Source: Eledone cirrhosa (lineage: Eukaryota). Taken from it: a stretch of DNA of 64,000 bases. A program made the translations under genes and the position numbers. Numbering within the stretch: position 1 is the stretch's first letter; each line of letters begins with the position of its first letter. This document shows positions 10,895-58,156 of the stretch, in pieces. The stretch spans positions 55,056,001 to 55,120,000 of the forward strand of contig OZ024745.1 of assembly GCA_964016885.1 (NCBI GenBank). Direction: 5' to 3'. The notes beneath the pieces were generated by a model. That model was not told the DNA's origin and made no database searches. It saw nothing but the letters and a program-made list of their open reading frames with translations.

Positions 10895-11270
<376 letters not shown>

Positions 11271-11307
11271 TAGAAGGATTTAAATGGATACAGTTCAGAA
11301 AAGGAAT

Positions 11308-11428
11308 TTATTGACACGTATTTCAATAACAGTTATATAACCTGAAAACAGTTGCTATCTACAAAGTATTAATTATGCAGACACTCAATATTTCAATGTT
11401 ATTTTCAACTACCATTTCATCAGAATAA
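11308..11428 (-). ncRNA. Type I hammerhead ribozyme with long stem II (pLTR copy A)
   Basis: Minus strand TTATT-CTGATGA-AATGGTAGTT...AACTGTTATT-GAAA-TACGTG-TC-AATAA. Confidence 0.72.
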
Positions 11429-11883
11429 TATCATTGAGAACTTGTTTGGTTTTTATAGAGAATATTAAGATGGAGGAGTGAAGTTGTTAGAAGAATAGTT
11501 AAGCGAGTGGATAGAAATTGTTGATAGCAGTAGGTAATTAGATTCCGATCTGTTATTTTGTTAGTTGTGTTTGACATATTTTAGAATAGAATATTCATTA
11601 TTTGGCGTTAGTTGTATTGGTTATTTTTCTAAATCTATCGAAGGATTAGAGATAGTAAAGATATGCATGGTTGGTTTTTGTGTTTGCACTTAATTCACAT
11701 ACAGACTTAAGTTTTTCTTTCAAGTGAACGTATCCGTTCGCCCACAAATAAATATATGCGTATATATACTTATTTTTTAAAAAAACATACACATTCCCAC
11801 ACATACATATATGTACACCTCTACAAATACATACACTCACATACACATACTTACATGCTCATACCTACATACATATATACCTG

Positions 11884-11939
<56 letters not shown>

Positions 11940-12358
11940 TATACATATATATATGTGCATACATACGCATTCATGTATATACGCTTTCATACTCTACTTA
12001 TCCTCATATACACACATATAGACACACACATATATACATACATACTCTAGTCCATGTGTATCTATAAATATATATATAAATACACATACATTTAATTATA
12101 CACATCAAACATATATATATATATAGACTCACCCACTTATTTACTTATTTGTATACATTTTCACATATATACACACATATGGTCGCTTTTAGACACATTC
12201 ATTATAGCATATTCGTACCTATTCTCACCATCATATTTATCCATTATTAGTGTGATAATTTAAGGTTATTAATAGTACATATATATGTTGAGAAGAGATT
12301 GTTTTTATATTTTTCTAACTAGATTGAGGATTTGTATAGTTGGGAGGATGTCCCTCGT

Positions 12359-14400
12359 TTATGTAATATTCAGCTTGTAGTGGGAAAAAATGGTTTTAGT
12401 TCGGTGACGGCAGAATAATGTTCGTTCAATTCTGTTATTAAGCAATTTCTTCTTGTGTGTGATTATGTAATAAATCTCAAGATTACATAATTTGCAGAAA
12501 TTTTGGCTTCTGGAAAAGCTTTGGGTTTTAGCTAATTTCTCCCATTTTAGGGTAAACTTTTGATCGCTATCCCTGAGTGTCCAAGCTTTTTCTGCTAAAG
12601 TTGTTACATATCTTTGGCTCTTGTGTTTTATTGAGTAAGAATGCCTATATAATCGAGATTTAAACGATGTTGCCGTTGATCCCACGTAATACCACTCGTT
12701 GCCTCCGGATTCAATGGTACACTTATAGATGACATTTTTTCCCGGCAGTTATTGCCGAGGGGGCAATTGTCATGATAGGTGCAGTTACAGTTGTGTACGT
12801 TGGTTTTGTAGTTGGGTGGTTCACTCTGGAGTAGTATTGCGGACGAACTTAGGTGTGGCTTATTTATGTTCTGTAGTGTATTGTCTACTGATTTTCTTGT
12901 GCTCTTTGTACTTAAGTTTTTAGTGTTTTTGTTTAACCTTCTAGTATTAATCTTTTTTATGTGTTGTTCAAGGTTTAACGCTGTAGAGTATGACAGTCTT
13001 ATAGTGTTAGGGTTTAGGATTTTGTGGTATTTGTGTGATGTAGGAAAATGTTTCTTAACTATTTTAAAGAAGAGTACTGGTAAATTTGTACTAATGGAAC
13101 TATTGTATTCAGGGTTATACCATAAGTACTCTTTGCATCGCTTCCTATTAGTTTTGTTTGTTGGTTTATTGGTGTGTACATTATGGTAGTAAGTGTGGTT
13201 TGGTGTTGTGTTATTATTTCTACCTATGTGGGATTTATTTTGGATGTTTTGATTGTTTTCATCTATATATTCTATTTTATTGAGGTAGCCTACTTTAGTA
13301 AGGGCGTTATCGTAGTACTGGGCGTGTTCCTTAAATACTTGTATGTTAGAAGATAGACCCGAGATTCTAAGGGAAATATTCTTAGGGATAGATTTAATTA
13401 TAGAGATGGGGTGGTTAGACCCAACATTCACGTACTTGAGATTTTCATTCAATTTATAAAACGGTTTAATCAGACCAGAGTTTAAATTGAGTGTGACATC
13501 CAGGAAGTTAACTACTTTAAGGTTGTGTTCATATGTTATAGTTAGTCCTATTTCAAGTAGTAGTTTTCTTATATCTTTGCGTAGTTTTTCTAGTTTTTGG
13601 TTATTTAGGTTTTTAACTAGGAGGAGAGCATCGTCACGGTATATTCCACCGTGGAGATTACTGAATGTTTCCTGGAGTCTAAAGGCGATAAATAACAACA
13701 CAATATCAGTTATTTCCGCCGAATCGTTAGAGCCCATTGTTATGTCAAAGTTGGAGGGTCTATCTTTACGAACCCAATAACTGTTCTCAAATTTGACTAT
13801 AGTTTTCCTAGCTTCTAATATAATCTTAATTTCTTCGTTTGTAAGGTCAGAGTTATGCTTAGCAAACTCAATGGCTCTATTCAGAGTTTCAGGTGATATC
13901 GATGAGTAATATTCATCGATATCAAACTGGATAAACTAATATTTATTCTTATTGCTAATGCTATTAAACCATCTTATTGCTTCTTGGGTCTTCCTCCAGA
14001 GTTTAATGTTAACCCTAGCCTTAATTTGGGGGATGATTGACTCTAAGATATATTTGCTTATTTTACCTATATCTGATTTAGAGGGGCAGATTAGTCTAAT
14101 GTTAGTGTCATTATCAAAGTTTACCTTATGGTCCTTAAGATTGACGGTGGGTACCGCCGGTAAGAGTGGTCCTGTCCTATCTTCGATTCCGAGATTGTTC
14201 ACTATTTCGCATGCCTCATCATTGGTGTGCTTAAGGGTTACTTCACTCGTTTTTCTATATTTTTTATGTAATTCTTTTCGAATGAAGTTGTTATATGTAG
14301 TGCAATCCATAGTGTACATGTTAGATTTTTGTCCGCTTTTACTACAATTCCTTTGGTGTTTTTAAGGTCATCCAGTAGTTTTTTAATATCTTTCTGCTGT
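12359..14400 (-). pseudogene. Penelope-like RT + CxC linker + GIY-YIG endonuclease, disrupted by frameshifts and stops
   Basis: Motifs LKDHK, RLICPSKSDIG, MGSNDSAEI, GIYRDD, NFLDVTLNL, YVNVGSNHP, LWYNP, CNC...CPLGNNC, GSTATSFKSR, CKLCNLE, LLN, CRH. Confidence 0.9.
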
Positions 14401-14510
14401 TTGTTGTTGGACAGCTAACGTAGGGTTTGCTCGACGGTTCCAGTTGTAGTTTCAAAAGTAATCCGGAGAAAAAAGAAGGATTTAAATGGATACAGTTCAG
14501 TAAAAGGAAT

Positions 14511-14631
14511 TTATTGACACGTGTTTCAATAACAGTTATATAACCTGAAAAACGCTGCTATCTACAAAGTATTAATTATGCAGACACTCAATATTTCAAT
14601 ATTATTTTCAGCTACCATTTCATCAGAATAA
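14511..14631 (-). ncRNA. Type I hammerhead ribozyme with long stem II (pLTR copy B)
   Basis: Minus strand TTATT-CTGATGA-AATGGTAGCT...AACTGTTATT-GAAA-CACGTG-TC-AATAA. Confidence 0.75.
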
Positions 14632-14944
14632 TATCATTGAGAACTTGTTTGGTTTTTATAGAGAATATTAAGAGGGAGGAGTCAAGTTGTTAGAAGAATA
14701 GTTAAGCGAGTGGATAGAAATTGTTGATAGCAGTGGGTAATTAGATTCCGATCTGTTATTTTGTTAGCTGTGTTTGACATTTTTTAGAATAGAATATTCA
14801 TTATTTGGCGTTAGTTGTATTGGTTATTTTTCTAAATCTATCGAAGGATTAGAGATAGTAAATATATGCATGGTTGGTTTTTGTGTTTGCACTTGATTCA
14901 CATACATACTTAAATTTTTCTTTCAAGTGTACGTATATGTGTAT

Positions 14945-14977
<33 letters not shown>

Positions 14978-15072
14978 GACTAGAGTATGTATGCATATAT
15001 GTGTGTGTCTATATGTGTGTATATGAAGATAAGTAGAGTATGAAAGTGTATATACATGTATATATATGTATA

Positions 15073-15172
<100 letters not shown>

Positions 15173-15628
15173 CAGGTATATATGTATGTAGGTATGAGCA
15201 TGTAAGTATGTGTATGTGAGTGTATGTATTTGTAGAGGTGTACATATATGTATGTGTGGGAATATGTATGTTTTTTAAAAAAAATAACTATATATACGCA
15301 TATATTTATGTGTGGGCGAACGGATACGTACACTTGAAAGAAAAATGTAAGTCTGTATGTAAATTAAGTGCAAACACAAAACCAACCATGCATATCTTTA
15401 CTATCTCTAATCCTTCGATAGATTTAGAAAAATAACCAATACAACTAACGCCAAATAATGAATATTCTATTCTAAAAAATGTCAAACTCAACTAACAAAT
15501 ATAAGAGATGGGAATCTAATTACCCACTGCTATCAACAATTTCTATCCACTCGCTTAACTATTCTTCTAACAACTTGACTACTCCCTCTTAATATTCTCT
15601 ATAAAAACCAAACAAGTTCTCATTGATA

Positions 15629-15749
15629 TTATTCTGATGAAATGGTAGTTGAAAATAACATTGAAATATTGAGTGTCTGCATAATTAATACTTTGTAGAT
15701 AGCAGCTGTTTTCAGGTTATATAACTGTTATTGAAACACGTGTCAATAA
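15629..15749 (+). ncRNA. Type I hammerhead ribozyme with long stem II (inverted pLTR copy C)
   Basis: TTATT-CTGATGA(15634-15640)-AATGGTAGTT...AACTGTTATT-GAAA(15733-15736)-CACGTG-TC-AATAA; palindromic stem III. Confidence 0.78.
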
Positions 15750-15897
15750 ATTCCTTTTACTGAACTGTATCCATTTAAATCCTTCTATTTTCTACGGATT
15801 ACTTTTGAAACTACAACTGGAACCGTCGAGCAAACCCTACGTGAGCTGTCCATCTACTGTGTATAATATTCATATTACAACACTACGGATAATACTA

Positions 15898-16348
<451 letters not shown>

Positions 16349-16544
16349 ATAGACATGCTTAGAGTTCTGTAGAATTTTCTATCTCCAAACACGTACAGAT
16401 AGACAGACAATTGGGTCAGTTGCATTTTCATGTATGATGTACAATGATATATCTAAACCATAATAAATGGAGGAGCACGGGACTGCGTATGGTTTATAAT
16501 TTGTTATCCCATTAGTAAAATAAGTTGGATTACTTTAAATAAAA

Positions 16545-16937
16545 AATTGTTTCTACTTTTGGCACAAGGCCAGCAAATATCCAGTGCATTACTGGTACTT
16601 TATTTTATCGACCCCGTAAGGATGAAAGGCAAAGTTGACCTCAGCAGGATTTGTACTCAGACCATAAAGGGCCGTAAGTCTTTGCTGCAAAGCATGGCGT
16701 CCGACCCTCTACCGATACTGCCAATCCAACGCCCATTACTTTGAATAAATAATTGTTTCTACTTTAGGCACAAGGCCAGCAATTACCCAGTACATTACTG
16801 GTACTTTATTTTATCGACCCCGTAAGGATGAAAGGCAAAGTTAACCTCGGCGGGATTTGAACTCAGACTGTAAAGGGACGTAACTATGCTAGAAAGCATG
16901 GCGTTCAACCCTCTACCTATACTGTCAATTCACCGCC
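16545..16937 (-). mobile_element. Two tandem tRNA-derived SINEs (~16545-16733 and ~16750-16937)
   Basis: Minus-strand A box TGGCAGTATCGG, B box GTTCAAATCC, body TTTGCCTTTCATCCTTACGGGGTCGATAAAATAAAGTACCAG, ATT tail; separated by ATTACTTTGAATAA. Confidence 0.9.
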
Positions 16938-27252: not shown

Positions 27253-27367
27253 TTATTTTCTGATATTCCTGTAATCTAAACTATAATAAAGGAAGATCGG
27301 CGGGATTGCGTACGGTTTATTTTTTTTTTATCTCGTTTGTAAAATAAGTTGGATTACTTTGAATAAT

Positions 27368-27746
27368 AATTGTTTCTACTTTTGGCACAAGGTCAGCAAT
27401 TACCCAGTACATTATTGGTACTTTATTTTATCGACCTCGTAAGGATGAAAGGCAAAGTTAACCTCGGCGGGATTTGAACTCAGATCGAAAAGGGACGTAA
27501 CTATGCTGGAAAGCATGTCTGACGCTCTACCGATACTGCCAATTGACCGCGCGATTACTTTGAATAATAATTGTTTCTACTTTAGGCACAACGCCAGCAA
27601 TTATTTCAGTGCATTGTTCGTACTTCATTTTATCGACCCCGTAAGGATGAAAGGCAAAGTTAACCTCGGCGGAATTTGAACTCAGATCATAAAAGGACGT
27701 AACTATGCTGGAAAGCATGGCGTCCGACCCTCTACCGATACTGCCA
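27368..27746 (-). mobile_element. Two tandem tRNA-derived SINEs (~27368-27551 and ~27568-27746)
   Basis: Same family, again separated by ATTACTTTGAATAA. Confidence 0.9.
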
Positions 27747-31935: not shown

Positions 31936-34900
31936 GGTGACCTACGTAGGAAATCGTATTATCGTGAGCTCCGCAAAGGTTTGTTATTTCCGTTTGTTTA
32001 AAAATTGCCATTTATGGAAAATTTTATTGTTAACTGTTTATAAGCACACATACATTGTTTTCCGAAAAGGACACCGAAAAAGATTGGGGCCTTGTGCCCA
32101 AAATTTTAACTTTTATTATTATCCAAAAATTTCTTTGAAAAAAAATGGCTAATTCCCCTCTGCACGAAGCAGCTGAAAGCCTTCCTCACAAAATAACACC
32201 TCACACCGAAACCACCATTGTAAATGTTACTACGTTTGCCAACACAAAAAAAAATATAAGCAGTAGCAATATTTTAAATTTGTCTCAGGCAGACATTCAT
32301 TTCCCGCCATTACCAATGACTGCAGGTGTTAAAGCCTCCACCACCACCAACACCGCGACAACCACCACCCCCACCACCACCGCGACAACAGAAACAAAAG
32401 AAGAAAAACATAAATTAACTCGTGATGTCGAAATGAAATTAAGCAAAATGGACTCTTCCGCACCAAAGACGACTGACGCCACCACCACCACAACTGAAAC
32501 TAAAATTAATATTAACACAAATAACGATAGCAACAACAACAACAATGACATTATAAAACCGACCCTCAGTTTCGCCATCGTAGCAAAACAATTCGAAGCG
32601 TTCACGGTAACTCAAGAGGATTTAGAAAATGCCAAACAAATGGTAAAGAAAGATGGGTACAGGGTCAGCCTCAGACACACACCTAATAAAATGGAGCATC
32701 GGCGCCTATGCACCGATGAGGCGCTTAGCAAAGGCATCGCGACCGACGTACTTGCGGCGAAATTGGCCCTTGACCAATTCTTCAATGCAAAGCACGAAGG
32801 CTGCGTTGTCAGAGCTAGGGTGCGTGCTCTCAGACACGAGGGGACGAAAGCCGTTCAATGGGCCCGAGTGGCGGAGGCGCGTCGTGGCAACAAAGCCACG
32901 ATCCGGTCTTTGGTGGACCACGACGGGCGCATGCTACTCGATCCCGGGCAAATCTGTGAAGCTTTTCAGCGACACTTCGCTCAACTGTTCGGGGGCAGTG
33001 GCGGGCCGGATCGAGGGATGGACTTTAGTGTCTACCTCGACGGACTGCCGCGGCTTTCGGCCACTGAGGCGGAGTGTTGCGAAAAGCCGATAACAACCGC
33101 TGAAGTACGGGAGGCAATGACTAGTTGCACAAGGGGTAAATCGCCTGGTTTGGATGGTCTGCCCTATGAACTTTACGTACAAATGCCAAACTTGTTCGGA
33201 GGCCTCTTGGCGGACGTCTACTGCAACTGGCAACAGAACGGGAGAATTCCCAGCTCTGTGAGCCGAGGAGCGGTGGCGCTGCTGAGAAAGGATCCGAACA
33301 AGGGGGATAACATAGATAATTTTAGGCCCATAACTCTGCTAAACACAGAGTTCAAGATTTTGGCCAAAGTGCTAGCAAAGAGGTTGGCGCTTGTCGTTGG
33401 TGGTCTGGTGGTAGAGGCACAGACATGCGCCATTCCCGACAGATCCATCCACGACAACCTCCACCTCATGCGATACATCGTAGAGAGGGTAGCTAGGGAA
33501 CCTGGCACGGGTGGGTCTTTGATCAATTTAGATCAGTCGAAAGCCTTCGATAGGGTCGACCATCGTTACCTAGCGGCAGTCCTGAGGGCGGCTGGCTTTG
33601 GGCCCGTCTTCAGAGGCTGGATCGCTGCCATGCACGGCGATATCTGCTCTGTGGTGAGAGTGATCGGTCACCTTTCGGAACCGTTCAACATCATGCGCTC
33701 GGTCCGCCAAGGATGTTCCATCTCGTCCCTCTTGTACGTATTGTCTCTCGAGCCATTACTGCAAAAACTGGAGACGTTGAGGGTTTTCCCGCGCGAACTA
33801 GGATGCCGAAGATCCGTGTCAGCATATGCGTACGATGTCACCGTAGTGGTGTCGAACGCCAAACACATCGAGGCGATCGGCACTACACTAAGAGAATACG
33901 AAGCGGTGACAGGAGCAATGATCAACCAGGAAAAGTCAGTGGGCCTGCAGCTCGGCACCTGGAGAGGCAGGTCCATGCCGTCCAACAGCATCGTCTGGCG
34001 CTGGACGGACCGGTTAAATTGCTAGGGTCTGGTTCGGTCCGGACCTCCAGACGAACAAACACTGGGACGAGGTGACGAGCAGGGTGGCTTCTCTCACGCA
34101 GAAATGGGTGGAGAGGAAGCTTTCCTTGAAAGCTCGAGCGGAGGTGGCTAACGCGTACATCGCATCCGTCATCTACTACCGCCTGGCCGTCTTACCTTGT
34201 CCTAAGCCCCGCCTGACTGCGCTGGAGCGTTTGCTCTTTCGTTTTTTGTGGAAGGGACACCTCCGATGGTCAGGCGGTCCATCTGCTGTCAACACCTGCT
34301 ACGTGGAGGGATGGGCATGCCGTGTCTGATGATGGGGTTACACGCGCTCAGGCTACGACATCTCCACCTGTTCCTCGACGGTTATCAGGTGTGGTCGCCG
34401 TTTGCTAGACGCGTCTTTCCCCATCTCCTCTCCTTCACGGAGCTGCAGTATTTGGTCAAGCGGAGACAGAGAGGGAGCGCTTGGAGACTGGAATGTCTTC
34501 AGGCGCTCACAGCCCTCGACTAATCGGGCAATGTGATCGGTGGAAACTCCACCTTGGCATTCTATAGAGGATTAGTGGAGTGGAAGAGTGACAACGTACA
34601 TGGGGAAAGTCTAGGCGTGGACGAAAATCAACTAGCCAATCTCTTCGGAAGAACTTTCGGGCCGGGGCCTATGGACAACTTCCAGAAATCCCTAGCCTGG
34701 TAGTGCTACCGAGGAGCTTTGCCAGTTCGGGATAAACTCTACAGGCATGGAGGTGCCGTCAGCCGGGCATGTCCGAGTTGCGCGTAGGGCGACGAAACCG
34801 TCCTGCACGCACACCACCGGTGTCGGAGCATTGCTGACTTGTGGGTTTATGTCGAACACCTGCTGTCGCGTGTATGACGGATCCAGCTATCAGTTGAGTC

Positions 34901-40248: not shown

Positions 40249-40760
40249 GACGCGTGGAACATCGCTGGTAAGCTTTTTTTGTAAATTTTTATACAAAAAG
40301 CTGGACTAATTGTTTGAAAAAACATATCATTTTGTAGATTAAACCCCAAGCTGGGTGGTAATTCTGTTTTTCGCCTCTAAAGGGGCGAACATTTAATTTA
40401 AAAATTGTTTTAAAAAAATCAAATTTTGCCGACTATAAAAAATGAGTGACTCGGAAAGAACGCCGAAGAATGTTAACAGAGTGAAAAGAAGTAGAAAGGC
40501 AGATATTAACGTTATATCTGCTTCTGCCACTATGGACGTCGTCATGGATACGACTGTCAACAAAGGAAAAATATTGCCACTTGAACATTTTAAAATTTCT
40601 ACCGTCGAAGCGGAGAAAAATAACACACAACATACACAGAAAACCATAGAAAACACAGAAATTAAACCTATTCATATACATACACATGAACAAGCCAACA
40701 ACAACAACTCCATGAAATTGCGATTTCTAACACTGAGGATTACAACAACAACAACAACAA

Positions 40761-40792
<32 letters not shown>

Positions 40793-43700
40793 ATACCACA
40801 AAAAATATCTTTCGCTGAAACAGTGAACAAGAAACAATATTTTATAAATCTTGACATCTCTAATGCAAGCGATATGCTCCAGCAAGGGAGAAATCTTGTA
40901 ACATTCGAACGACAAGGGTGGGTTTAGAATCAACTGACCCCTCGAAATAAAAGAAGAGACGGTTCGAAGGACAGTGACCTTCAGGACTGTCTCAAACACA
41001 ATGAGAAAGCCAGTATTTGTGAGTCAACGAGACATAGAAGCCACCTTGAAGGAGCCTCTAGAGAATATTGACTTTCTTCAACGGAAGTATTTCCGTACTG
41101 TTTAAAAGCGAGGCACTCGCCCAAAAACATTCTGCGTCACCAAGGTGTCAAAAGCATTCACCTTTTTCCCTACGTACATGGGAAAAAAAGACACAAAAAA
41201 TAAAAATAAAAAGTATACCACCAAACATTAACATCTGGTGGATCTTGGCTGGCTTTGTGGAGCCAGAGACTGATGCAGATGAGGCCGGAGAGTATCTCCA
41301 CAATACCCGAAAAAGTCATCGTCGACGACAAAAACAAGATATACATTTCGGTGGAGGGGTGTAAACCTCATTGCTTTCGCTGTGGTAGCACAGCACACCT
41401 AAAGGCATCCTGACCTTCACAAATACATCACAACAATATCATTAAAAAACACTATTACAAACACTAATACCGAAACAACCACCACCACAAGTACAACAAC
41501 AGACGAAACGAGCAAACACACCAAAACAAACAGACACTCAACCAACAACAACAGAAAAAAACACAGACAACACCTCTGAAGAACACAACCACACCCCATC
41601 ACTCCATCAAACATTACCACAAACGAACACACCGAAACAACATCACCACACAACATTCCCCTATCCCACACTCCTGACGATGATCATTCATCGACGGATG
41701 ACGGTGCTTCTCCTTCTTTAAGTGAAGAAGAATTTTAGCCTCAGAAATCAAGTAAAACAAAAAAAGAGACACCGCAAAACACAAAAAAATCCAATCACCA
41801 GCACCAACACAGAACCACAGACACAAACAACCACACAAACAACACCACAACCAAACCTCCCCCTACCAACAAACAAACACCAACATCACCCCAAGCACAA
41901 AAAAGAAAACTCACAGACGAACAACAAACTAAAACAACACAACCAAAACAAAATCAACAATATACATACATCAAGGCCAACAATAACAATTTAATGGAGA
42001 TCATCTCCCAGGACCGCAAAGTGGAAACTGAGGGGAAAATATTTGTAAAATCTGACACTGCACCACACCTCAGTCTAATAAGGGTTCCGGTAGAAACCTA
42101 CCAAAAACTAAAGAACTAATTTTCACAGGGCGTTGGCAACCCATACCAAAAACCAATAAACCGTGTCCTGTTGAAATGTTTCCCCACCCCACTCAACGCC
42201 CCCACCAAAACTGAAATGGAGATCGAACAACGCGATCTCCAGGAAACGGAAAGGTAAGCGCATCCTTTCGTCCTTGATTTGCCAACTCTTCTACACCAAC
42301 AAGGCGGATTTACGAGTTGAAAGTGTGAATGTGCGTGGCCTAGGGATGCCCTGGAAAGAGGGCAAACTCTTAAACGACCTTAGGTCACACAACAGGCAGC
42401 AGCTGACCCCCAACTTCGACAACTTTGAGATCAACGAATTTCTCTGTCAGCCAAGAGGTGGAGTAGATGTCATGTTTAGGAAAAACCTGGATATCGAAAT
42501 ACAGCAACTACATTTGAACAAGGAAGGGTTGACTGGTAGTCCTAGACGTGAACAGTGTTGGAGGTGGAGCCTTAAGACTGGTGGCCGTTTATGCCCCGAC
42601 TGGGCAATCGCAGACAGACTTCTTCAAGCGTCTAGAGTCTTTTCTGGGAATGTCTCGCTCCTTGCTTTTAGTGAGGGACTGAAATGGTGTCCTAGATGCA
42701 CGATGTGACTATGTGGGATCATGTCCCAGTAGAGGGGGGTGCAGCTGCCTCAAAACTTTAATCGGCCAATTCCAGCTGGCCGATAGGTATCGACTGGATT
42801 TCCCGACTGCACCACAGTGGACGTGGGCAAACCGTAGCTGGACATCTAAATCGTATTTAGATAGGTTCTTCATTAGAGACAGGGACAAGGAGATGTTATG
42901 CTGTCCACGAATACACATGGTTGCCTATTCAGATCCCAAATTAGACGTCTGCATAGTCAACAGTGATAGAACACATAGACATGGACCCGCATACTGGAAG
43001 CTGAACGTGTCGTTGCCAGCACGTAAAGTTTAGAGTGAACAGATAAGTAGACTAGTCAAGCAGCAGTTAACGTGAGCCATCGTCAACAATAGATGGTGGT
43101 ACTCTCTCAAGACAGCAATTAGAGTAGAATCGATAGGGTTTAGCAGAGAGTTAGCTTTAGAGAAAAACAAAATTGAAAGAGAACTAGTAGCCAAGGTAGA
43201 GGTGGAGAAAAACGAAGTCACGGCCAAGGTGTTTGCGCTCACCCAGAAGATGGCAGAGTGCAAACTGTCCTTGAAAGGTCGAGCGGAGGTGGCGAACACT
43301 TTCATAGCGTCCGTCATCTACTACCGTTTGACTGTCGTGCCTTGTCCCCGTGAACACCTCACCAAGATGGAATGCATGCTCTTCCCATTTCTGTAGAAGA
43401 AACAGGCTCCGCTGGTGAGGAGATCCGTCTGCTGTCAGTACCCTTCCAACGGGGGGGGGGGAATGCCGTGGCTGATGATGCGCAAACATGCGCTGAGCCT
43501 GCGGCATATCCAGGTATACCTCACCGACCCACAACCGATGTGGGCACCGTTTGTAAGACAGGCCTTCTTGCAGCTCGTCTCGGTGACGGAGATGCAGTCC
43601 GGGGTCAAGAAAAGACCGAAAATGATGGGCGCCTGGCAAATTGAATGCGCTCAGGCGCTTACTGTCCTCTGGCAAGCGAGCACAGCAATCAGTCGAGACT

Positions 43701-44582
43701 CCACTTCGACATTCTATAGAGGGATTGTATGTTACAAGGACGACGGCTTGCACGGAGAGACTCTGGGCGTCGAAGACGATGAGCTCACCAGTTTGTTTGG
43801 TAGGACTTTCCGCCCGGGACCTATGGACAACATCCAGAGGTCCCTGGCCTGGCAGTGCTACTGAGGAGCTCTACCAGTTCATGACAAGATCTACAAGCAC
43901 GGACGCCCCAGCAGGGATCATTCCAAGAGGACTTCCAAGATGCGCGCAGGACATTGAAGCCATCCTGCACGCAATTGTACACTGCCCGGGCGTAACCGAC
44001 CTGTGGAACTACGCGGAACAACTGCTGTCGCGTATGGGACAAATCCAGTTGTCTGCCAAAGTCCATAGTAAGGACAAACCGCCAACTTCTTTCAAAAACG
44101 AAAGAGAGGCGGTTTCCCTCTGTATAGTGGTTATGGTGAAAGAGGTTATATGGTGGACGAGATTGAGAGGACTGAGGAGAGATGCCTTTCTCTCCGGACA
44201 ACAACTGATTTCGTTCTTTAGATACCAGTTTAGAAGGAGAAGAAGAATGGAGTGAGAGGCACTGCTCCCCAATAAATTTACTGAAAGGTGGGTGAATGTG
44301 GCAAAAATGGCCCGAGTGATTGGACCTTCTCTGTATATAAACCTGTAGGTTGAAGAAGGGAGCAAAAAGAAGAAAGGAGCACTTGCACAACAAGCTCCTG
44401 AAGTTGAGGGTTGTTCTATCGACGGTGTATTAAACAACCCATTTATGGCGCCTCCCCCCTATTAGGGATTTCGTTTGTTATAATTGTTTGTTTTATATTG
44501 TTTTACACGATTGTATGTAAAACACCCGGCATGTCTTTGTTTTGTCCCCCGTTCTTGTGCACCCTTGTGGCTAATAAAGAAA
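40249..44582 (+). mobile_element. Tx1/L1-clade copy 2: ORF1 with zinc knuckle, AP endonuclease, RT deleted, C-terminal region retained
   Basis: CFRCGSTAHLKAS* at ~41372, LRVESVNVRGL, SKSYLDRFF, YWKLNVS, jump near 43200 to KLSLKGRAEVANTF; 3' end CCCTTGTGGCTAATAAAGAAA as in copy 1; (TCTA)n on the 5' side. Confidence 0.88.
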
Positions 44583-47047: not shown

Positions 47048-47090
47048 ATATTGCTGATGAGATGTAATAACATCGAAACTAGTCCAATAT
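47048..47090 (+). ncRNA. Intact minimal type I hammerhead ribozyme
   Basis: ATATTG-CTGATGA-GATGT AATA ACATC-GAAA-CTAG-TC-CAATAT; all core nucleotides present, predicted cleavage after 47084, stem I extendable outward. Confidence 0.9.
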
Positions 47091-51397: not shown

Positions 51398-52544
51398 GGT
51401 GGGTAGGAATGAGGCTGAATGAAAGAGAAAGAAAATGTTGGAAGTACACATTCATGACACTATTCGACTATCATGAAAATGTTATGAATACTTTGTATAG
51501 TTTATTAAATCCCTATCTGCTAATTCTCAAGTGAATGGTTGCCTTATATTTAGGCATATCTTAAACGGATTATTGACATATAATTCCGTTTCTCAGTTGG
51601 AACCACTATGTGTAAGAAGAACAACTTATCATGGTTAAGTAGAACCCAAATTCAAAAAGTGAGGGAAGGGGGTATACCATACAAAGTTTTCCTCTATGTT
51701 AGAGACATTTATTTTATCATTTCCACAATGTTGAAAGCCTGTTACTCAGAAAGGAAAGCAACCACATCAAATAGTTTATAGCATCTAGTATGTAACTTTA
51801 CTGCTTCTGTCGACTCTTTATTATACGTGTAATGGTCTATGATTCATTCAGCATAGAATCAAACATCGAAAGGCTACAGTAGTTTGTGTGCTTAAACAGT
51901 TAATACGTTCCCTTTGAAATGACACGGAAAGCGAAAAGATAACCAGCTATGAAAGCAAGCGAAAGGATCTCTTAAATCAATGGGTTCGTAAACGTCTGTA
52001 GGCGGATATATCTAGTTTGGATGTAATAGCTTGGATTTATGAGTAATCATTTCATCCCATTAGTTGGTTAAACGACTTACTCTTCTCTACATTGATGGAT
52101 CAAGAATAAGCCAGTTCAATTTGAATCTAGGGAAGATAAAATATGTCATATCTCCTAGATTTTTATTAACCAAATACATGATAACCGATATTCATATTCT
52201 CAGATGTTTCCTTTGTAACGTATTCTAATAACCAAAGAAAAAAAAACCACATATATTTTTACACATCAGTTTCAAACCTGAAACCAACAAGAACTAACGC
52301 AACGAAACAAAGGCATGTCACCAAAGATATATATTTTAGTACAAATGATGCGATAGAAGCAGACAAATGATATTACTATATATATATATATATACAGTAT
52401 TTTCCGTTGTGTTGTAATATAAATATTACACACAGTAGATTATCAGCTCACGTAGAGTTTGCTCGACGGTTCCAGTTGTAGTTCCAAAAGTAATCCGGAG
52501 AAAAATAGAAAGATTTGAATGGATACAGTTTAGTAGAAAGGAAT

Positions 52545-52664
52545 TTATTGACACGTGTTTCTATAACAGTTACATAACCTAAAACAGCTGCTATCTACAA
52601 ACTTTTAGTTATGCAGACATTCAATATTTCAATGTTATTATTTACTGTCATTTCATCAGAATAA
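52545..52664 (-). ncRNA. Long-stem-II hammerhead (pLTR copy D)
   Basis: Minus strand TTATT-CTGATGA-AATGACAGT...ACTGTTATA-GAAA-CACGTG-TC-AATAA; A.A mismatch at the base of stem II. Confidence 0.68.
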
Positions 52665-53221
52665 TATTACTGAGAGCCTATTTCGTTTTTATAGAGAATA
52701 TTAGGAGGGAGGGGTGAAGTTGTTAGAAGAATAGTTGAAGGAGTGGTTTTTCGATAGCAGTGAGAATTCTTGGTGGCAGTGAGTAATTAGATTCCCATCT
52801 GTTGTTTTGACATTTTTTAATAGAATATATTATTGGTTATTTTTCTAAATCTATAGAAGGATTAGAGATAGTAAAGATATGCGTGGTTGGTTTTGTGTTT
52901 GCACTTAATTAACATTCAGACTTAAATTTTTCTTTCAAGTGTACGTATCCTTTCACCCACGCATTCACACACAAATATATTTGCACACCTCTACAAAATA
53001 CATATACTCACAATTCACATATTCATACTTACATATATATACACATGCATACACATATATATACACACATGTATTCATGTACATACATACGCGCTCATGT
53101 GTATACATTTTCATACTCAACTTATCTTTATATACACACGTATAGACACACACATATATACATACATACTCTAGTCCATGTGTACACACATACACATACA
53201 TACACATCTATATACACATAT

Positions 53222-53300
<79 letters not shown>

Positions 53301-53567
53301 CACTTTAATACATGAATACACTTACATCTAACTATACACATCAAACATATATATATATTTACTTATTTATATACATTTTCACATATATATACATACTTAT
53401 GGACGTTTTTAGACACATTCATTATCGCATATTTGCACCTATTCTCATCAGCATATCTTTCCATTATTAGTGTGGTAATTTAAGGTTATTAATATATGTT
53501 GAGAAGAGATTGTTTTTATATTTTTCTAACTAGATTAAGGTTTATATAGTTGGGGGATGTCCCTCTT

Positions 53568-55690
53568 TTATGTAATATTCGGCTTGTAGTGGGAAAAAAG
53601 GGTTTTAGTTCTGTGACGGCAGAATAATGTTCGTTCAATTCTGTTATTCAGCAGTTTCTTCTTGTGTGTGATTATGTAATAAATCTCAAGATTACACAAT
53701 TTGCAGAAATTTTGGCTCCTGGAAAAGCTTTGGGTTTTAGCTAATTTCTCCCATTTTAGGGTAAACTGTTGATCGCTATCCCTGAGCGTCCAAGCTTTTT
53801 CTGCTAAAGTTGTTACATTTCTTTGGCTCTGGTGTTTTATTGAGTAAGAATGCCTATACAATCGAGATTTAAACGATGTTGCCGTTGATCCCACGTAATA
53901 CCACTCGTTGCCTCCGGATTTAATGGTACACTTATAAATAATATTTTTTTCCAGGCAGTTATTGCCGAGGGGGCAGTTGTCAGGATAGGTGCAGTTACAG
54001 TTGTGTACGTTCGGTTTTCTCTGGAGTAGTATTGCGGACGAACTTAGGTGTGGTTTATTTATGTTCTGTAGTGTATTGTCTACTGTTTTTTTGTGTTCTT
54101 TGTACTTAAGTTTTTAGTGTTTTCGTTTAACCTTCTAGTATTGATCTTTTTTATGTGTTGTTCAAGGTTTAACGCTGTAGAGTATGGCAGTCTTATAGTG
54201 GTAGGGTTTAGGATTTTGTGGTATTTGTGTGATGTAGGAAAATGTCTTTTAATTATTTTAAAGAAGAGTACTGGTAAATTTGTACTAATGGAACTATTGT
54301 ATTCGGGGTTATACCATAAGTACTCTTTGCATCGCTTTCTATTAGTTTTGTTTGTTGGTTTACTGGTGTGCATACTATGGTAGTAAGTGTGGTTTGGTGT
54401 TGTGTTATTATATCTACCTATGTGGGATTTATTTTGGGTGTTTTGATTGTTCCCATCTATGTACTCTATTTTGTTGAGGTAGCCTGCTTTACTAAGGGCG
54501 TTATCGTAGTACTGGGCGTGTTCCTTAAATACTTGTATGTTAGAAGATAGACCCGAGATTCTAAGGGAAATATTTTTAGGGATAGATTTAATTATAGAGA
54601 TGGGGTGGTTAGACCCAACATTTACGTATTTGAGATTTTCATTCAATTTATGAAACGGTTTAATCAAACCAGAGTTTAAATTGAGTGTGACATCCAGGAA
54701 GTTAACTACTTTAAGGTTGTATTCATATGTTATAGTTAGTCCTATTTCGAGTAGTAGTTTTCTTATATCTTTGCGTAGTTTTTCTAGTTTTTGGTTATTA
54801 AGGTTTTTAGCTAGGAGGAGAACATCGTCGCGGCATATTCCGCCGTGGAGATTGCTGAATTTTTCCTGGAGTCTAAAGGCGATAAATAACCCCACAATAT
54901 CAGTTATTTCCGCCGAATCGTTAGAGCCCATTGTTATGTCAAAGTTAGAGGGTCTATCTTTACGTACCCAATAACTGTTCTCAAATTTGACTATAGTTTT
55001 CCTAGCTTCTAATATAATCTTAATTTCATCGTTTGTAAGGTCAGAGTTATCCTTAGCAAACTTAATGGCTCTATTCAAAGTTTCAGGTGATATCGATGAG
55101 TAATATTCATCGATATCAAACTGGATAAACTTAGATTTATTCTTATTGCTAATGCTATTAAACCATCTTATTGCTTCTTGGGTCTTCCCCCAGAGTTTAA
55201 TGTTAACCTTAGCCTTAATTTGGGGGATGATTCTATCTAAGATATATTTGCTTATTTTACCTATATCTGATTTAGAGGGGCAGATTAATCTAATTTTAGG
55301 GTCATTATCAAAGTTTACCTTGTGGTCCTTAAGATTGAAGGTGGGTACCGCCGGTAAGAGTGGTCCTGTCCTATCTTCGATTCCGAGATTTTTCACTATT
55401 TCGCATGCCTCATCATTGATGTGCTTAAGGGTTACTTCACTCGTTTTTCTATATTTTTTATGTAATTCTTTTCGAATGAAGTTGTTGTATGTAGTGCAAT
55501 CCATAGTGTACAGGTTTGATGTTTTGTCCGCTTTTACTACAATTCCTTTGGTGTTTTTAAGGTCGTCCAGTAGTTTTTTTATATCTTTCTGTAATTTGCT
55601 GTTGGTGTTGCGTCCTTTGAATTTAATTTTAAGGATTAAGTTCATAAGGTCCTGCTCAAATGCATCTAATAGTGGGTTGGTGGGTGGGTT
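53568..55690 (-). pseudogene. Penelope-like RT (521-aa open stretch) + GIY-YIG endonuclease, 5'-truncated and frameshifted near 54080
   Basis: KADKT, LKDHK, FIQFDIDEYYSSI, MGSNDSAEI, GICRDD (YRDD in copy 1), FLDVTL, then endonuclease ORF 53568-53894. Confidence 0.9.
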
Positions 55691-56380
55691 TTTACAACTG
55701 ACAACTGCCCCCTCGGCAATAACTGCCTGGAAAAAAATATTATTTATAAGTGTACCATTAAATCCGGAGGCAACGAGTGGTATTACGTGGGATCAACGGC
55801 AACATCGTTTAAATCTCGATTGTATAGGCATTCTTACTCAATAAAACACCAGAGCCAAAGAAATGTAACAACTTTAGCAGAAAAAGCTTAGACGCTCAGG
55901 GATAGCGATCAACAGTTTACCCTAAAATGGGAGAAATTAGCTAAAACCCAAAGCTTTTCCAGGAGCCAAAATTTCTGCAAATTGTGTAATCTTGAGATTT
56001 ATTACATAATCACACACAAGAAGAAACTGCTGAATAACAGAATTGAACGAACATTATTCTGCCGTCACAGAACTAAAACCCTTTTTTCCCACTACAAGCC
56101 GAATATTACATAAAAGAGGGACATCCCCCAACTATATAAACCTTAATCTAGTTAGAAAAATATAAAAACAATCTCTTCTCAACATATATTAATAACCTTA
56201 AATTACCACACTAATAATGGAAAGATATGCTGATGAGAATAGGTGCAAATATGCGATAATGAATGTGTCTAAAAACGTCCATAAGTATGTATATATATGT
56301 GAAAATGTATATAAATAAGTAAATATATATATATGTTTGATGTGTATAGTTAGATGTAAGTGTATTCATGTATTAAAGTG

Positions 56381-56476
<96 letters not shown>

Positions 56477-57033
56477 ATATGTGTATATAGATGTGTATGT
56501 ATGTGTATGTGTGTACACATGGACTAGAGTATGTATGTATATATGTGTGTGTCTATACGTGTGTATATAAAGATAAGTTGAGTATGAAAATGTATACACA
56601 TGAGCGCGTATGTATGTACATGAATACATGTGTGTATATATATGTGTATGCATGTGTATATATATGTAAGTATGAATATGTGAATTGTGAGTATATGTAT
56701 TTTGTAGAGGTGTGCAAATATATTTGTGTGTGAATGCGTGGGTGAAAGGATACGTACACTTGAAAGAAAAATTTAAGTCTGAATGTTAATTAAGTGCAAA
56801 CACAAAACCAACCACGCATATCTTTACTATCTCTAATCCTTCTATAGATTTAGAAAAATAACCAATAATATATTCTATAAAAAAATGTCAAAACAACAGA
56901 TGGGAATCTAATTACTCACTGCCACCAAGAATTCTCACTGCTATCGAAAAACCACTCCTTCAACTATTCTTCTAACAACTTCACCCCTCCCTCCTAATAT
57001 TCTCTATAAAAACGAAATAGGTCCTCAGTAATA

Positions 57034-57153
57034 TTATTCTGATGAAATGACAGTAAATAATAACATTGAAATATTGAATGTCTGCATAACTAAAAGTTTG
57101 TAGATAGCAGCTGTTTTAGGTTATGTAACTGGTATAGAAACACGTGTCAATAA
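57034..57153 (+). ncRNA. Long-stem-II hammerhead (inverted pLTR copy E)
   Basis: TTATT-CTGATGA-AATGACAGT...ACTGGTATA-GAAA-CACGTG-TC-AATAA. Confidence 0.65.
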
Positions 57154-57321
57154 ATTCCTTTCTACTAAACTGTATCCATTCAAATCTTTCTATATATATA
57201 TATATATATATATAAATATTTACACATACACCAATTAAACAAAGGCACAGGTATATATGTGTTTTGGCAACTATTCACGATGTGGCTCAATGAAGAATTA
57301 AATTAAACAATCAGAGCAAAA

Positions 57322-58156
<835 letters not shown>

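What the first reader, a model, noticed from the sequence alone, without database searches (positions are those of the whole stretch)
15629..15749. Penelope pLTR hammerhead whose core halves are separated by a ~92-nt rod-like stem II, in five copies
Seen: CTGATGA and GAAA-CACGTG-TC lie 92 nt apart, closed by stem I TTATT/AATAA. AATGGTAGTT pairs fully with AACTGTTATT (three G-U pairs), and the interior can continue as a rod (ATAAC/GTTAT, TGTCTGCA/TGTAGATA). In element 2 the 5' strand is AATGACAGT and still pairs with ACTGTTAT, a pairing-consistent change. All five copies (11308, 14511, 15629, 52545, 57034) are in the element's sense orientation. Established: Penelope-like pLTRs carry minimal type I hammerheads with palindromic stem III. 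Inference: this is an elongated variant that short-stem motif searches could miss.
Basis: partly seen in the sequence, partly recalled or inferred. Interest (0 to 1): 0.8.

Follow-up and report, generated by a model that had tools for sequence, protein, structure and literature searches.

The report
Long-armed hammerhead in active Penelope-like retroelement
The end repeat of a jumping gene that has recently spread to thousands of copies in this animal genome carries a complete hammerhead self-cutting RNA motif whose middle arm is about four times the usual maximum length (about 90 bases, up to 116 in a sister family), too long for the standard search pattern, and it likely cuts slowly, as a pair or with protein help, though cutting is untested.

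Summary
CTGATGA (15634) and GAAACACGTGTC (15733-15744) flank a 92-nt predicted rod, closed by a 5-bp stem I. All five window copies exist, three with point defects. The motif lies in the pseudo-LTR of a young Hydra-type Penelope-like element (2773 exact-pattern matches, control 0; 773-aa ORF). Chance is excluded (0 of 2000 shuffles). Core and stems I/III show 0 of 29 differences between two subfamilies, against 23 of 163 in the flanks (p 0.018). Covariation inside this family is weak.

Long arms recur in the same genome: a sister Hydra family (101-116 nt) and an unrelated family (83-84 nt, branched, with compensatory changes). Published Hydra motifs measure about 12-26 nt; 39 motifs from 77 metagenome loci measure 10-30 nt.

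Against an efficient cutter: stem I is unpopulated in monomer folding, and 0 of 49 5' junctions lie at the predicted cut, while 3' ends lie 45 or 160 nt beyond it. Inserted templates were therefore uncut or re-ligated.

Verdict: a new variant of the dimer-type Penelope hammerhead; activity untested.

The parts
15629..15633 (+). Stem I, 5' strand (TTATT)
   Evidence: invariant in 20 of 20 aligned copies
15634..15640 (+). Hammerhead core, first half (CUGAUGA)
15641..15732 (+). 92-nt arm II, predicted interrupted rod of about 35 pairs with a 12-nt apical loop
15733..15744 (+). Core second half GAAA, palindromic stem III ACACGTGT, cleavage triplet GUC; predicted cut after 15744
   Evidence: palindrome self-duplex -10.3 kcal/mol
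15745..15749 (+). Stem I, 3' strand (AATAA)
14934..15902 (+). Inverted 3'-end fragment of element 1 that holds the motif; ends about 160 nt past the predicted cut, in (TA)n
14511..14631 (-). Copy of the motif in the upstream pseudo-LTR of element 1 (14408-14936); rod weakened
11308..11428 (-). Copy of the motif in the downstream pseudo-LTR of element 1; C>T in stem III
11270..14410 (-). Element 1 body: 5'-truncated Hydra-type RT-GIY-YIG ORF in three pieces (13936-14361, 12628-13935, 12359-12748) plus 3' UTR; ends 45 nt past the predicted cut
52545..52664 (-). Copy of the motif in element 2 (91-nt arm, z -5.3)
52387..55697 (-). Element 2 body: 5'-truncated, ORF in two frames (54080-55792 including junction, 53568-54113); 97.6% identical to intact copies
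55698..57193 (+). Inverted 3'-end fragment of element 2
57034..57153 (+). Copy of the motif in the inverted fragment of element 2; one mismatch in the basal helix
56226..56283 (+). Second, hammerhead-like relic about 115 nt after the ORF stop: intact CUGAUGA, 8-bp helix, 4-bp stem I, but A in place of the catalytic G12; also at 53398-53455(-) and, further decayed, 12178-12235(-)

Best explanation
This is a complete type I hammerhead motif with a 88-92-nt arm II in the pseudo-LTR of a young, high-copy Hydra-type Penelope-like retrotransposon, and it likely works as a slow ribozyme that cuts only as a dimer or with help from the element's protein. Shown: sequence, position (one motif per 3.6-kb unit, 210 nt before the AUG and about 1 kb after the stop), copy number, conservation of the core, and the insertion ends. 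Predicted: the arm folds as a rod and brings CUGAUGA next to GAAAC. Inferred: the all-A-U stem I and 2-bp stem III are too weak alone; the 8-nt palindrome pairs with a second motif (the next tandem unit or another transcript); the cut falls after GUC (15744) and would release unit-length RNA. Most RNA that gets inserted is uncut, or cut and re-ligated into a circle, because reverse transcription starts 45 or 160 nt past the site and reads back through it.
For: Chance excluded. Core plus stems I/III: 0 of 29 differences between subfamilies against 23 of 163 in flanks, Fisher p 0.018. Arm II differs at 11 of 91 positions, yet 96% of paired cells stay paired (37-53% or less when slid), and one pair runs C-G, U.G, U-A. 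Arm z -3.1 to -5.3 in 8 of 11 copies. A sister Hydra family (ORF 54% identical over 380 aa) keeps the core, a different 8-nt palindrome, stem I and a 101-116-nt rod at the same place. An unrelated family has an 83-84-nt branched arm with compensatory changes (28 cells changed on both sides, 0 of 500 shuffles). Precedent: metazoan PLE motifs are inactive as monomers and weak as dimers (PMC4209133), and the anole PLE motif cuts only with the element's protein while uncut RNA is the main insertion substrate (PMC11167929).
Against: No cleavage assay and no RNA-end data. Stem I pairing probability is at most 0.02 in 11 of 11 copies, and the hammerhead fold costs 5-11 kcal/mol over the best fold in monomer context. 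No G10.1-C11.1 pair. Covariation within this family does not beat shuffles (33 of 500 for the score, 361 of 500 for pairs). Arm II diverges as fast as the flanks (11 of 91 against 23 of 163), and the flanks hold difference-free runs of 21-23 nt. 0 of 49 distinct 5' junctions lie at the cut (nearest -19 and +48); in the sister family 0 of 30 (nearest +7).
Confidence: 0.6

Rival explanations
1. The fold is kept by selection but no longer cuts: core and rod serve as a binding or folding platform for the element's protein, for RNA dimerisation through the palindrome, or as a boundary signal.
For: Insertions read through the site; stem I unstable; in the anole element ribozyme mutants do not impair insertion in vitro; one subfamily of the sister family has sharp 5' ends 6-8 nt before the core, not at the cut.
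Against: The conserved letters are exactly the catalytic ones plus an NUH triplet in every family seen; the relic motif in the same element, which lost G12, decays further in subfamily 1 while the long motif does not.
Confidence: 0.25
2. A neutral relic: an ancestral short hammerhead gained an insertion and is carried along unselected; the family is simply too young to have decayed.
For: Only two main subfamilies about 11% apart; p 0.018 is modest; weak covariation.
Against: Long arm plus intact core in two Hydra families whose proteins differ by 46% and whose arms are only weakly alike (17 of 1000 shuffles); strong folding in the youngest subfamily.
Confidence: 0.1
3. An efficient monomeric ribozyme that trims every transcript to a linear unit, which is then inserted.
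For: Core and GUC are canonical.
Against: 103 of 118 copies end 43-45 or 159-160 nt past the site with the motif intact, and 40 of 49 5' junctions lie upstream of it; monomer folding unfavourable.
Confidence: 0.04
4. Chance juxtaposition of two short words in AT-rich DNA.
For: CTGANGA and GAAA are common words.
Against: 0 of 2000 shuffles; position matches that of hammerheads in other Hydra elements.
Confidence: 0.01

Closest known systems
Type I hammerheads in Hydra-clade Penelope-like elements (Craig et al. 2021, PMC8557442, section 11 and File S2)
   Same: Sense strand, near the 3' end, CUGANGA/GAAA core, short palindromic stem III, first stem II pair often not G-C (A-U in Hydra-1_oBim); protein motifs and (TA)n targeting match.
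   Different: Stretch between the core halves about 12-26 nt in the listed Hydra motifs (my count) and 10-30 nt in 39 metagenome motifs, against 88-92 nt here; unit 3.6 kb with a long 3' UTR and a second, relic motif.
Minimal dimer-type hammerheads of metazoan PLEs (Cervera and de la Pena 2014, PMC4209133)
   Same: Weak stem I, palindromic helix III, larger-than-usual helix II, pseudo-LTR location, predicted need for dimers or cofactors.
   Different: Their descriptor allows 3-7 bp plus a 3-10-nt loop and no helix III insert; here about 35 pairs and an 8-nt palindrome.
PAc (Poseidon of Anolis carolinensis) hammerhead and two-site tail (PMC11167929)
   Same: Two discrete 3' ends downstream of the motif; uncut RNA as insertion template; no footprint at the cut (against 77, 78).
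   Different: Short stem II overlapping the start codon there; here a long arm 210 nt before the AUG and ends at +45 and +160.
Deviant PLE-X motifs of spike mosses (Craig et al. 2021 File S2)
   Same: Enlarged stem-loop II, about 50 nt by my count: the longest precedent I found in a PLE.
   Different: About half the length, endonuclease-less Chlamys-related elements, flagged as deviating from the canonical structure.
Discontinuous mammalian hammerheads (Martick et al. 2008; title seen in a reference list; details recalled)
   Same: Core halves far apart in sequence.
   Different: As recalled, type III motifs in mRNA 3' UTRs with the insertion in stem I, not in a retroelement's stem II.

Membership tests
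Type I hammerhead ribozyme | CUGANGA and GAAA core with A15.1-U16.1 pair | tested here: met
Type I hammerhead ribozyme | NUH cleavage triplet | tested here: met
   GUC at 15742-15744
Type I hammerhead ribozyme | Three helices around the core, helix I open | tested here: met
   Complementarity in 20 of 20 copies for stems I and III; stem I predicted unstable in the monomer
Type I hammerhead ribozyme | G10.1-C11.1 pair (typical, not strict) | tested here: not met
   A-U, or A.A then A-U; non-G-C first pairs also occur in listed Hydra motifs
Type I hammerhead ribozyme | Loop 1-loop 2 tertiary contact of fast natural hammerheads | not testable with these tools
   The apical loop lies about 35 pairs from the core, so the usual contact is geometrically unlikely (inference)
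Type I hammerhead ribozyme | Site-specific self-cleavage | not testable with these tools
   No assay; genomic ends show no pile-up at the site, which fits uncut or circular templates
Minimal PLE hammerhead (Cervera and de la Pena 2014) | Palindromic helix III allowing a dimer | tested here: met
   ACACGTGT, self-duplex -10.3 kcal/mol
Minimal PLE hammerhead (Cervera and de la Pena 2014) | Located in both pseudo-LTRs, sense strand | tested here: met
   motif before and after intact ORFs, 3.6 kb apart
Minimal PLE hammerhead (Cervera and de la Pena 2014) | Stem II 3-7 bp with a 3-10-nt loop | tested here: not met
   descriptor; 88-92 nt here. Hence a variant that works like this class, not a member by its descriptor
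Hydra clade of PLEs | RWK and DKT motifs, C-terminal GIY-YIG nuclease | tested here: met
   RVRWK, ADKT, NIIY...YVG against the definition; the aligned Hydra proteins match by eye
Hydra clade of PLEs | CxCX5C linker; CxxC and CxH near the end; no CX2-5CxxC finger | tested here: met
   absence of CCHH judged by eye
Hydra clade of PLEs | Insertion into (TA)n | tested here: met
   3' ends run into (TA)n in the rows printed
Hydra clade of PLEs | Phylogenetic placement with reference Hydra RTs | not tested
   No tree built; reference sequences were seen only in a paper supplement

The most novel reading that the evidence does not exclude
In this host lineage hammerheads of several unrelated Penelope-like families have independently grown arm II into 45-116-nt rods and multi-branch domains that still cut, and the arm is a regulatory module (a protein-binding or A-to-I editing-sensitive switch) that decides whether the transcript is cut. 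Such motifs would form a large overlooked class, more than ten thousand copies in this genome, and may explain some 'missing' hammerheads in other PLE clades.
Probability: 0.2. Interest if true: 0.75.

Novelty: new variant of a known kind. Interest (0 to 1): 0.5.

Why it matters
The role of hammerheads in Penelope-like elements is open. This young family, with many intact near-identical ORFs and two sharp 3' ends, is a good system in which to test it. If the long-arm motifs cut, natural hammerheads tolerate domain-sized insertions in stem II without the usual loop-loop contact, and censuses built on short-stem descriptors or Rfam models undercount ribozymes: here more than 11,000 pattern matches above control in three searches alone. 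If they do not cut, a conserved catalytic core with another job is itself informative. A long stem II is not forbidden by hammerhead chemistry (engineered insertions there are routine; recalled), which limits the surprise.

Tried and rejected
Rfam scan of the window: no hammerhead at the five copies. Pfam: no family for the element's ORF pieces or the full ORF. Sequencing runs: no RNA holder listed; the four runs laid are contigs and cannot show ends. One search used a misregistered structure string (my error); it is discarded and replaced. Searches had script bugs and were redone; one search failed and was redone. First metagenome scan with the single protein found nothing; the alignment scan worked. 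In one search the one '97-nt' motif (L303) is a mis-pick: a 13-nt motif is nested in the printed string, so I count it as short. The singleton rate in the core (0.0003 against 0.0039) is not used, because some loci were found by a pattern that demands the core. No A>G excess among genomic copies, so edited RNA is not visibly fixed in insertions. I first linked the branched family to the Hydra ORF in L179 and rejected that: the two are only adjacent, and that ORF has its own 47-nt-arm motif. Literature: nine searches found no report of PLE hammerheads with arms near 90 nt. Lunse et al. 2017 and the Terminon paper are not held, file 1 of the Cervera supplement was not searchable and preprint supplements were not read, so a prior mention there cannot be excluded. 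Earlier scan findings: none on this motif.

Full report
Observation. The motif is at the stated coordinates: stem I TTATT (15629-15633), CTGATGA (15634-15640), a 92-nt arm (15641-15732), GAAACACGTGTC (15733-15744) and AATAA (15745-15749). The arm folds as one interrupted rod. The five window copies exist. Three carry defects: a C>T in stem III (11308), a weakened rod (14511, z -0.26) and a basal mismatch (57034). The pattern has 2773 matches in the 3.0-Gb genome against 0 for the reversed control. Rfam does not see it.

The element. Intact copies elsewhere show the order: long motif, 210 nt, a 773-aa ORF, a relic motif about 115 nt after the stop, a (TA)n-containing 3' UTR, the next long motif, 3.6 kb per unit, with tandem and head-to-head inverted arrangements (8 loci chosen for long ORFs). 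The 149 other top protein matches are 99% identical over 170 aa, many in 785-codon frames, so the family is young. The protein has RWK, DKT, YRDD, CxCX5C, a C-terminal GIY-YIG, CxxC and CxH and no CX2-5CxxC. These are the marks of the Hydra clade as defined by Craig et al. 2021 (PMC8557442; I read section 11, passages and supplement parts 1-2). No tree was built. The host is probably an octopod; this is an inference from genome size and from homologues in Octopus bimaculoides and Argonauta hians.

Selection on the motif. 102 distinct copies fall into two main subfamilies about 11% apart. Core plus stems I and III differ at 0 of 29 positions, the flanks at 23 of 163 (Fisher p 0.018), and arm II at 11 of 91. 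This is modest: flanks also hold runs of 21-23 unchanged bases. In 20 hand-picked variant copies 96.4% of paired cells stay paired (29-53% when slid). One pair runs C-G, U.G, U-A, but covariation does not beat shuffles (33 of 500). The arm's folding z is -3.1 to -5.3 in the 8 of 11 tested copies outside element 1, and -2.1, -2.2 and -0.3 in element 1.

Long arms are common in this genome. Patterns that exclude this family gave 2522 matches (control 227) for spacings of 63-93 nt and 7956 (control 203) for 94-123 nt. Of the 30 loci read, many were chance hits, but several were repeat families. (a) A sister Hydra family, ORF 54% identical over 380 aa, has a 101-116-nt rod, the palindrome ACGATCGT and a stem I of up to 10 bp at the same position; 7 of 42 predicted pairs show a two-sided change in 13 copies, some due to alignment. 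Its arm is only weakly like ours (17 of 1000 shuffles). (b) An unrelated family (900 matches, control 1) has an 83-84-nt arm with two inner hairpins. In 41 of 44 distinct copies aligned, 28 cells change on both sides, 0 of 500 shuffles reach that, and two basal pairs switch between G-C and A-U; relatedness inflates such counts. A GIY-YIG fragment of another PLE type lies upstream on the same strand in L176 and inverted in L120 and L184, so it is probably a Neptune- or Nematis-like element (inference). (c) Further motifs have arms of 27, 46-54, 65, 94-95 and 96-102 nt, not all tied to an ORF.

Outside this genome arms are short. The Hydra motifs listed by Craig et al. measure about 12-26 nt by my count, and two deviant spike-moss motifs about 50 nt. 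Of 77 Hydra-like loci from metagenome contigs, 39 had a motif outside the ORF under a scan allowing 170 nt: 38 measured 10-30 nt, and the one 97-nt call hides a nested 13-nt motif; 4 antisense hits give the noise level. The published descriptor allows 3-7 bp and a 3-10-nt loop (PMC4209133; main text parts 1-2 and supplement passages). Nine literature searches found no PLE hammerhead with an arm near 90 nt. Two key papers were not available.

Does it cut? Monomer folding in context gives stem I a probability of at most 0.02 in 11 of 11 copies and puts the hammerhead fold 5-11 kcal/mol above the best fold; the palindrome forms an 8-bp self-duplex of -10.3 kcal/mol. This is the profile of dimer-type PLE motifs, which are inactive alone and weak as dimers. 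Genomic ends were used as a footprint. Of 118 distinct copies, 58 end 43-45 nt and 45 end 159-160 nt past the predicted cut, 14 continue into the next unit and 1 ends at +106. From 48 regions, 53 alignment starts were listed; after dropping the reference itself and 3 duplicates, 40 of 49 5' junctions lie upstream of the cut, 9 downstream, none at it (nearest -19 and +48). In the sister family 27 of 30 lie upstream and 3 downstream (+7, +58, +174). A cut linear unit is therefore not the usual template. Uncut RNA or a re-ligated circle both fit. The anole element behaves alike: two internal start sites, a motif that cuts only with the protein, uncut RNA inserted (PMC11167929, passages).

Mechanism. 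Shown: anatomy, position, conservation, ends. Predicted: the rod. Inferred: slow dimer- or protein-assisted cutting after GUC, giving unit-length RNA that may be circularised or translated, while reverse transcription starts at +45 or +160 and reads back through the motif. I give this 0.6, a non-cutting structural role 0.25, a neutral relic 0.1, a fast monomer 0.04 and chance 0.01.

Verdict. It works like the dimer-type PLE hammerhead but falls outside that class's descriptor, so it is a new variant of a known kind. Its interest comes from the recurrence of long arms in several families of one genome and from the testability of a young family. It is held down by untested activity and weak covariation in this family. 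Interest 0.5.

Noticed in passing
window 56226-56283(+), 53398-53455(-), 12178-12235(-): A second hammerhead-like motif just after the ORF stop, where Hydra motifs usually lie, with A for G12 in all 100 listed of 1207 matches and further decay in subfamily 1. The element may have replaced its old ribozyme by gaining a longer 3' end with the long-arm motif.
   Followed up: partly
L063:8800-9050, run X4: Contigs of one run of unrecorded kind show clustered A>G (8 of 9 A in one 30-nt loose end, read by eye) and T>C changes across the arm; such a form has 0 matches in the assembly. This looks like A-to-I hyper-editing of double-stranded RNA from inverted copies, but there is no DNA run of the same sample, so it is a weak hint only.
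   Followed up: partly
L190-L192, L196, L199, L201, L202, L211, L212: One subfamily of the sister family forms head-to-head pairs that begin 6-8 nt before the core and end 39 or about 201 nt past the cut: short, ORF-less, retrozyme-like units made almost only of the long hammerhead.
   Followed up: partly
G000 C1:52923241, 52928729, 52934219 (L126-L128): An 85-nt-arm hammerhead-like motif repeated in tandem every 5.5 kb.
   Followed up: no
window 47048-47090(+), 57634-57699(-), 47515(-)/47672(+): Other hammerhead-like motifs of unrelated repeats: 14-nt arm (weak Rfam HH9 hit), 46-nt arm, and an inverted pair with 30-nt arms.
   Followed up: no
L165-L173: An older family with a 96-102-nt multi-branch arm and the same ACACGTGT palindrome; no ORF found within 5 kb upstream.
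   Followed up: partly
window 32139-34025(+), 40439-44255: LINE-type reverse transcriptase ORF (Pfam RVT_1) and a related decayed element.
   Followed up: no
window 16539-16900, 19780, 24343, 27362-27719, 63202: Copies of a short interspersed repeat (families D11, D15).
   Followed up: no
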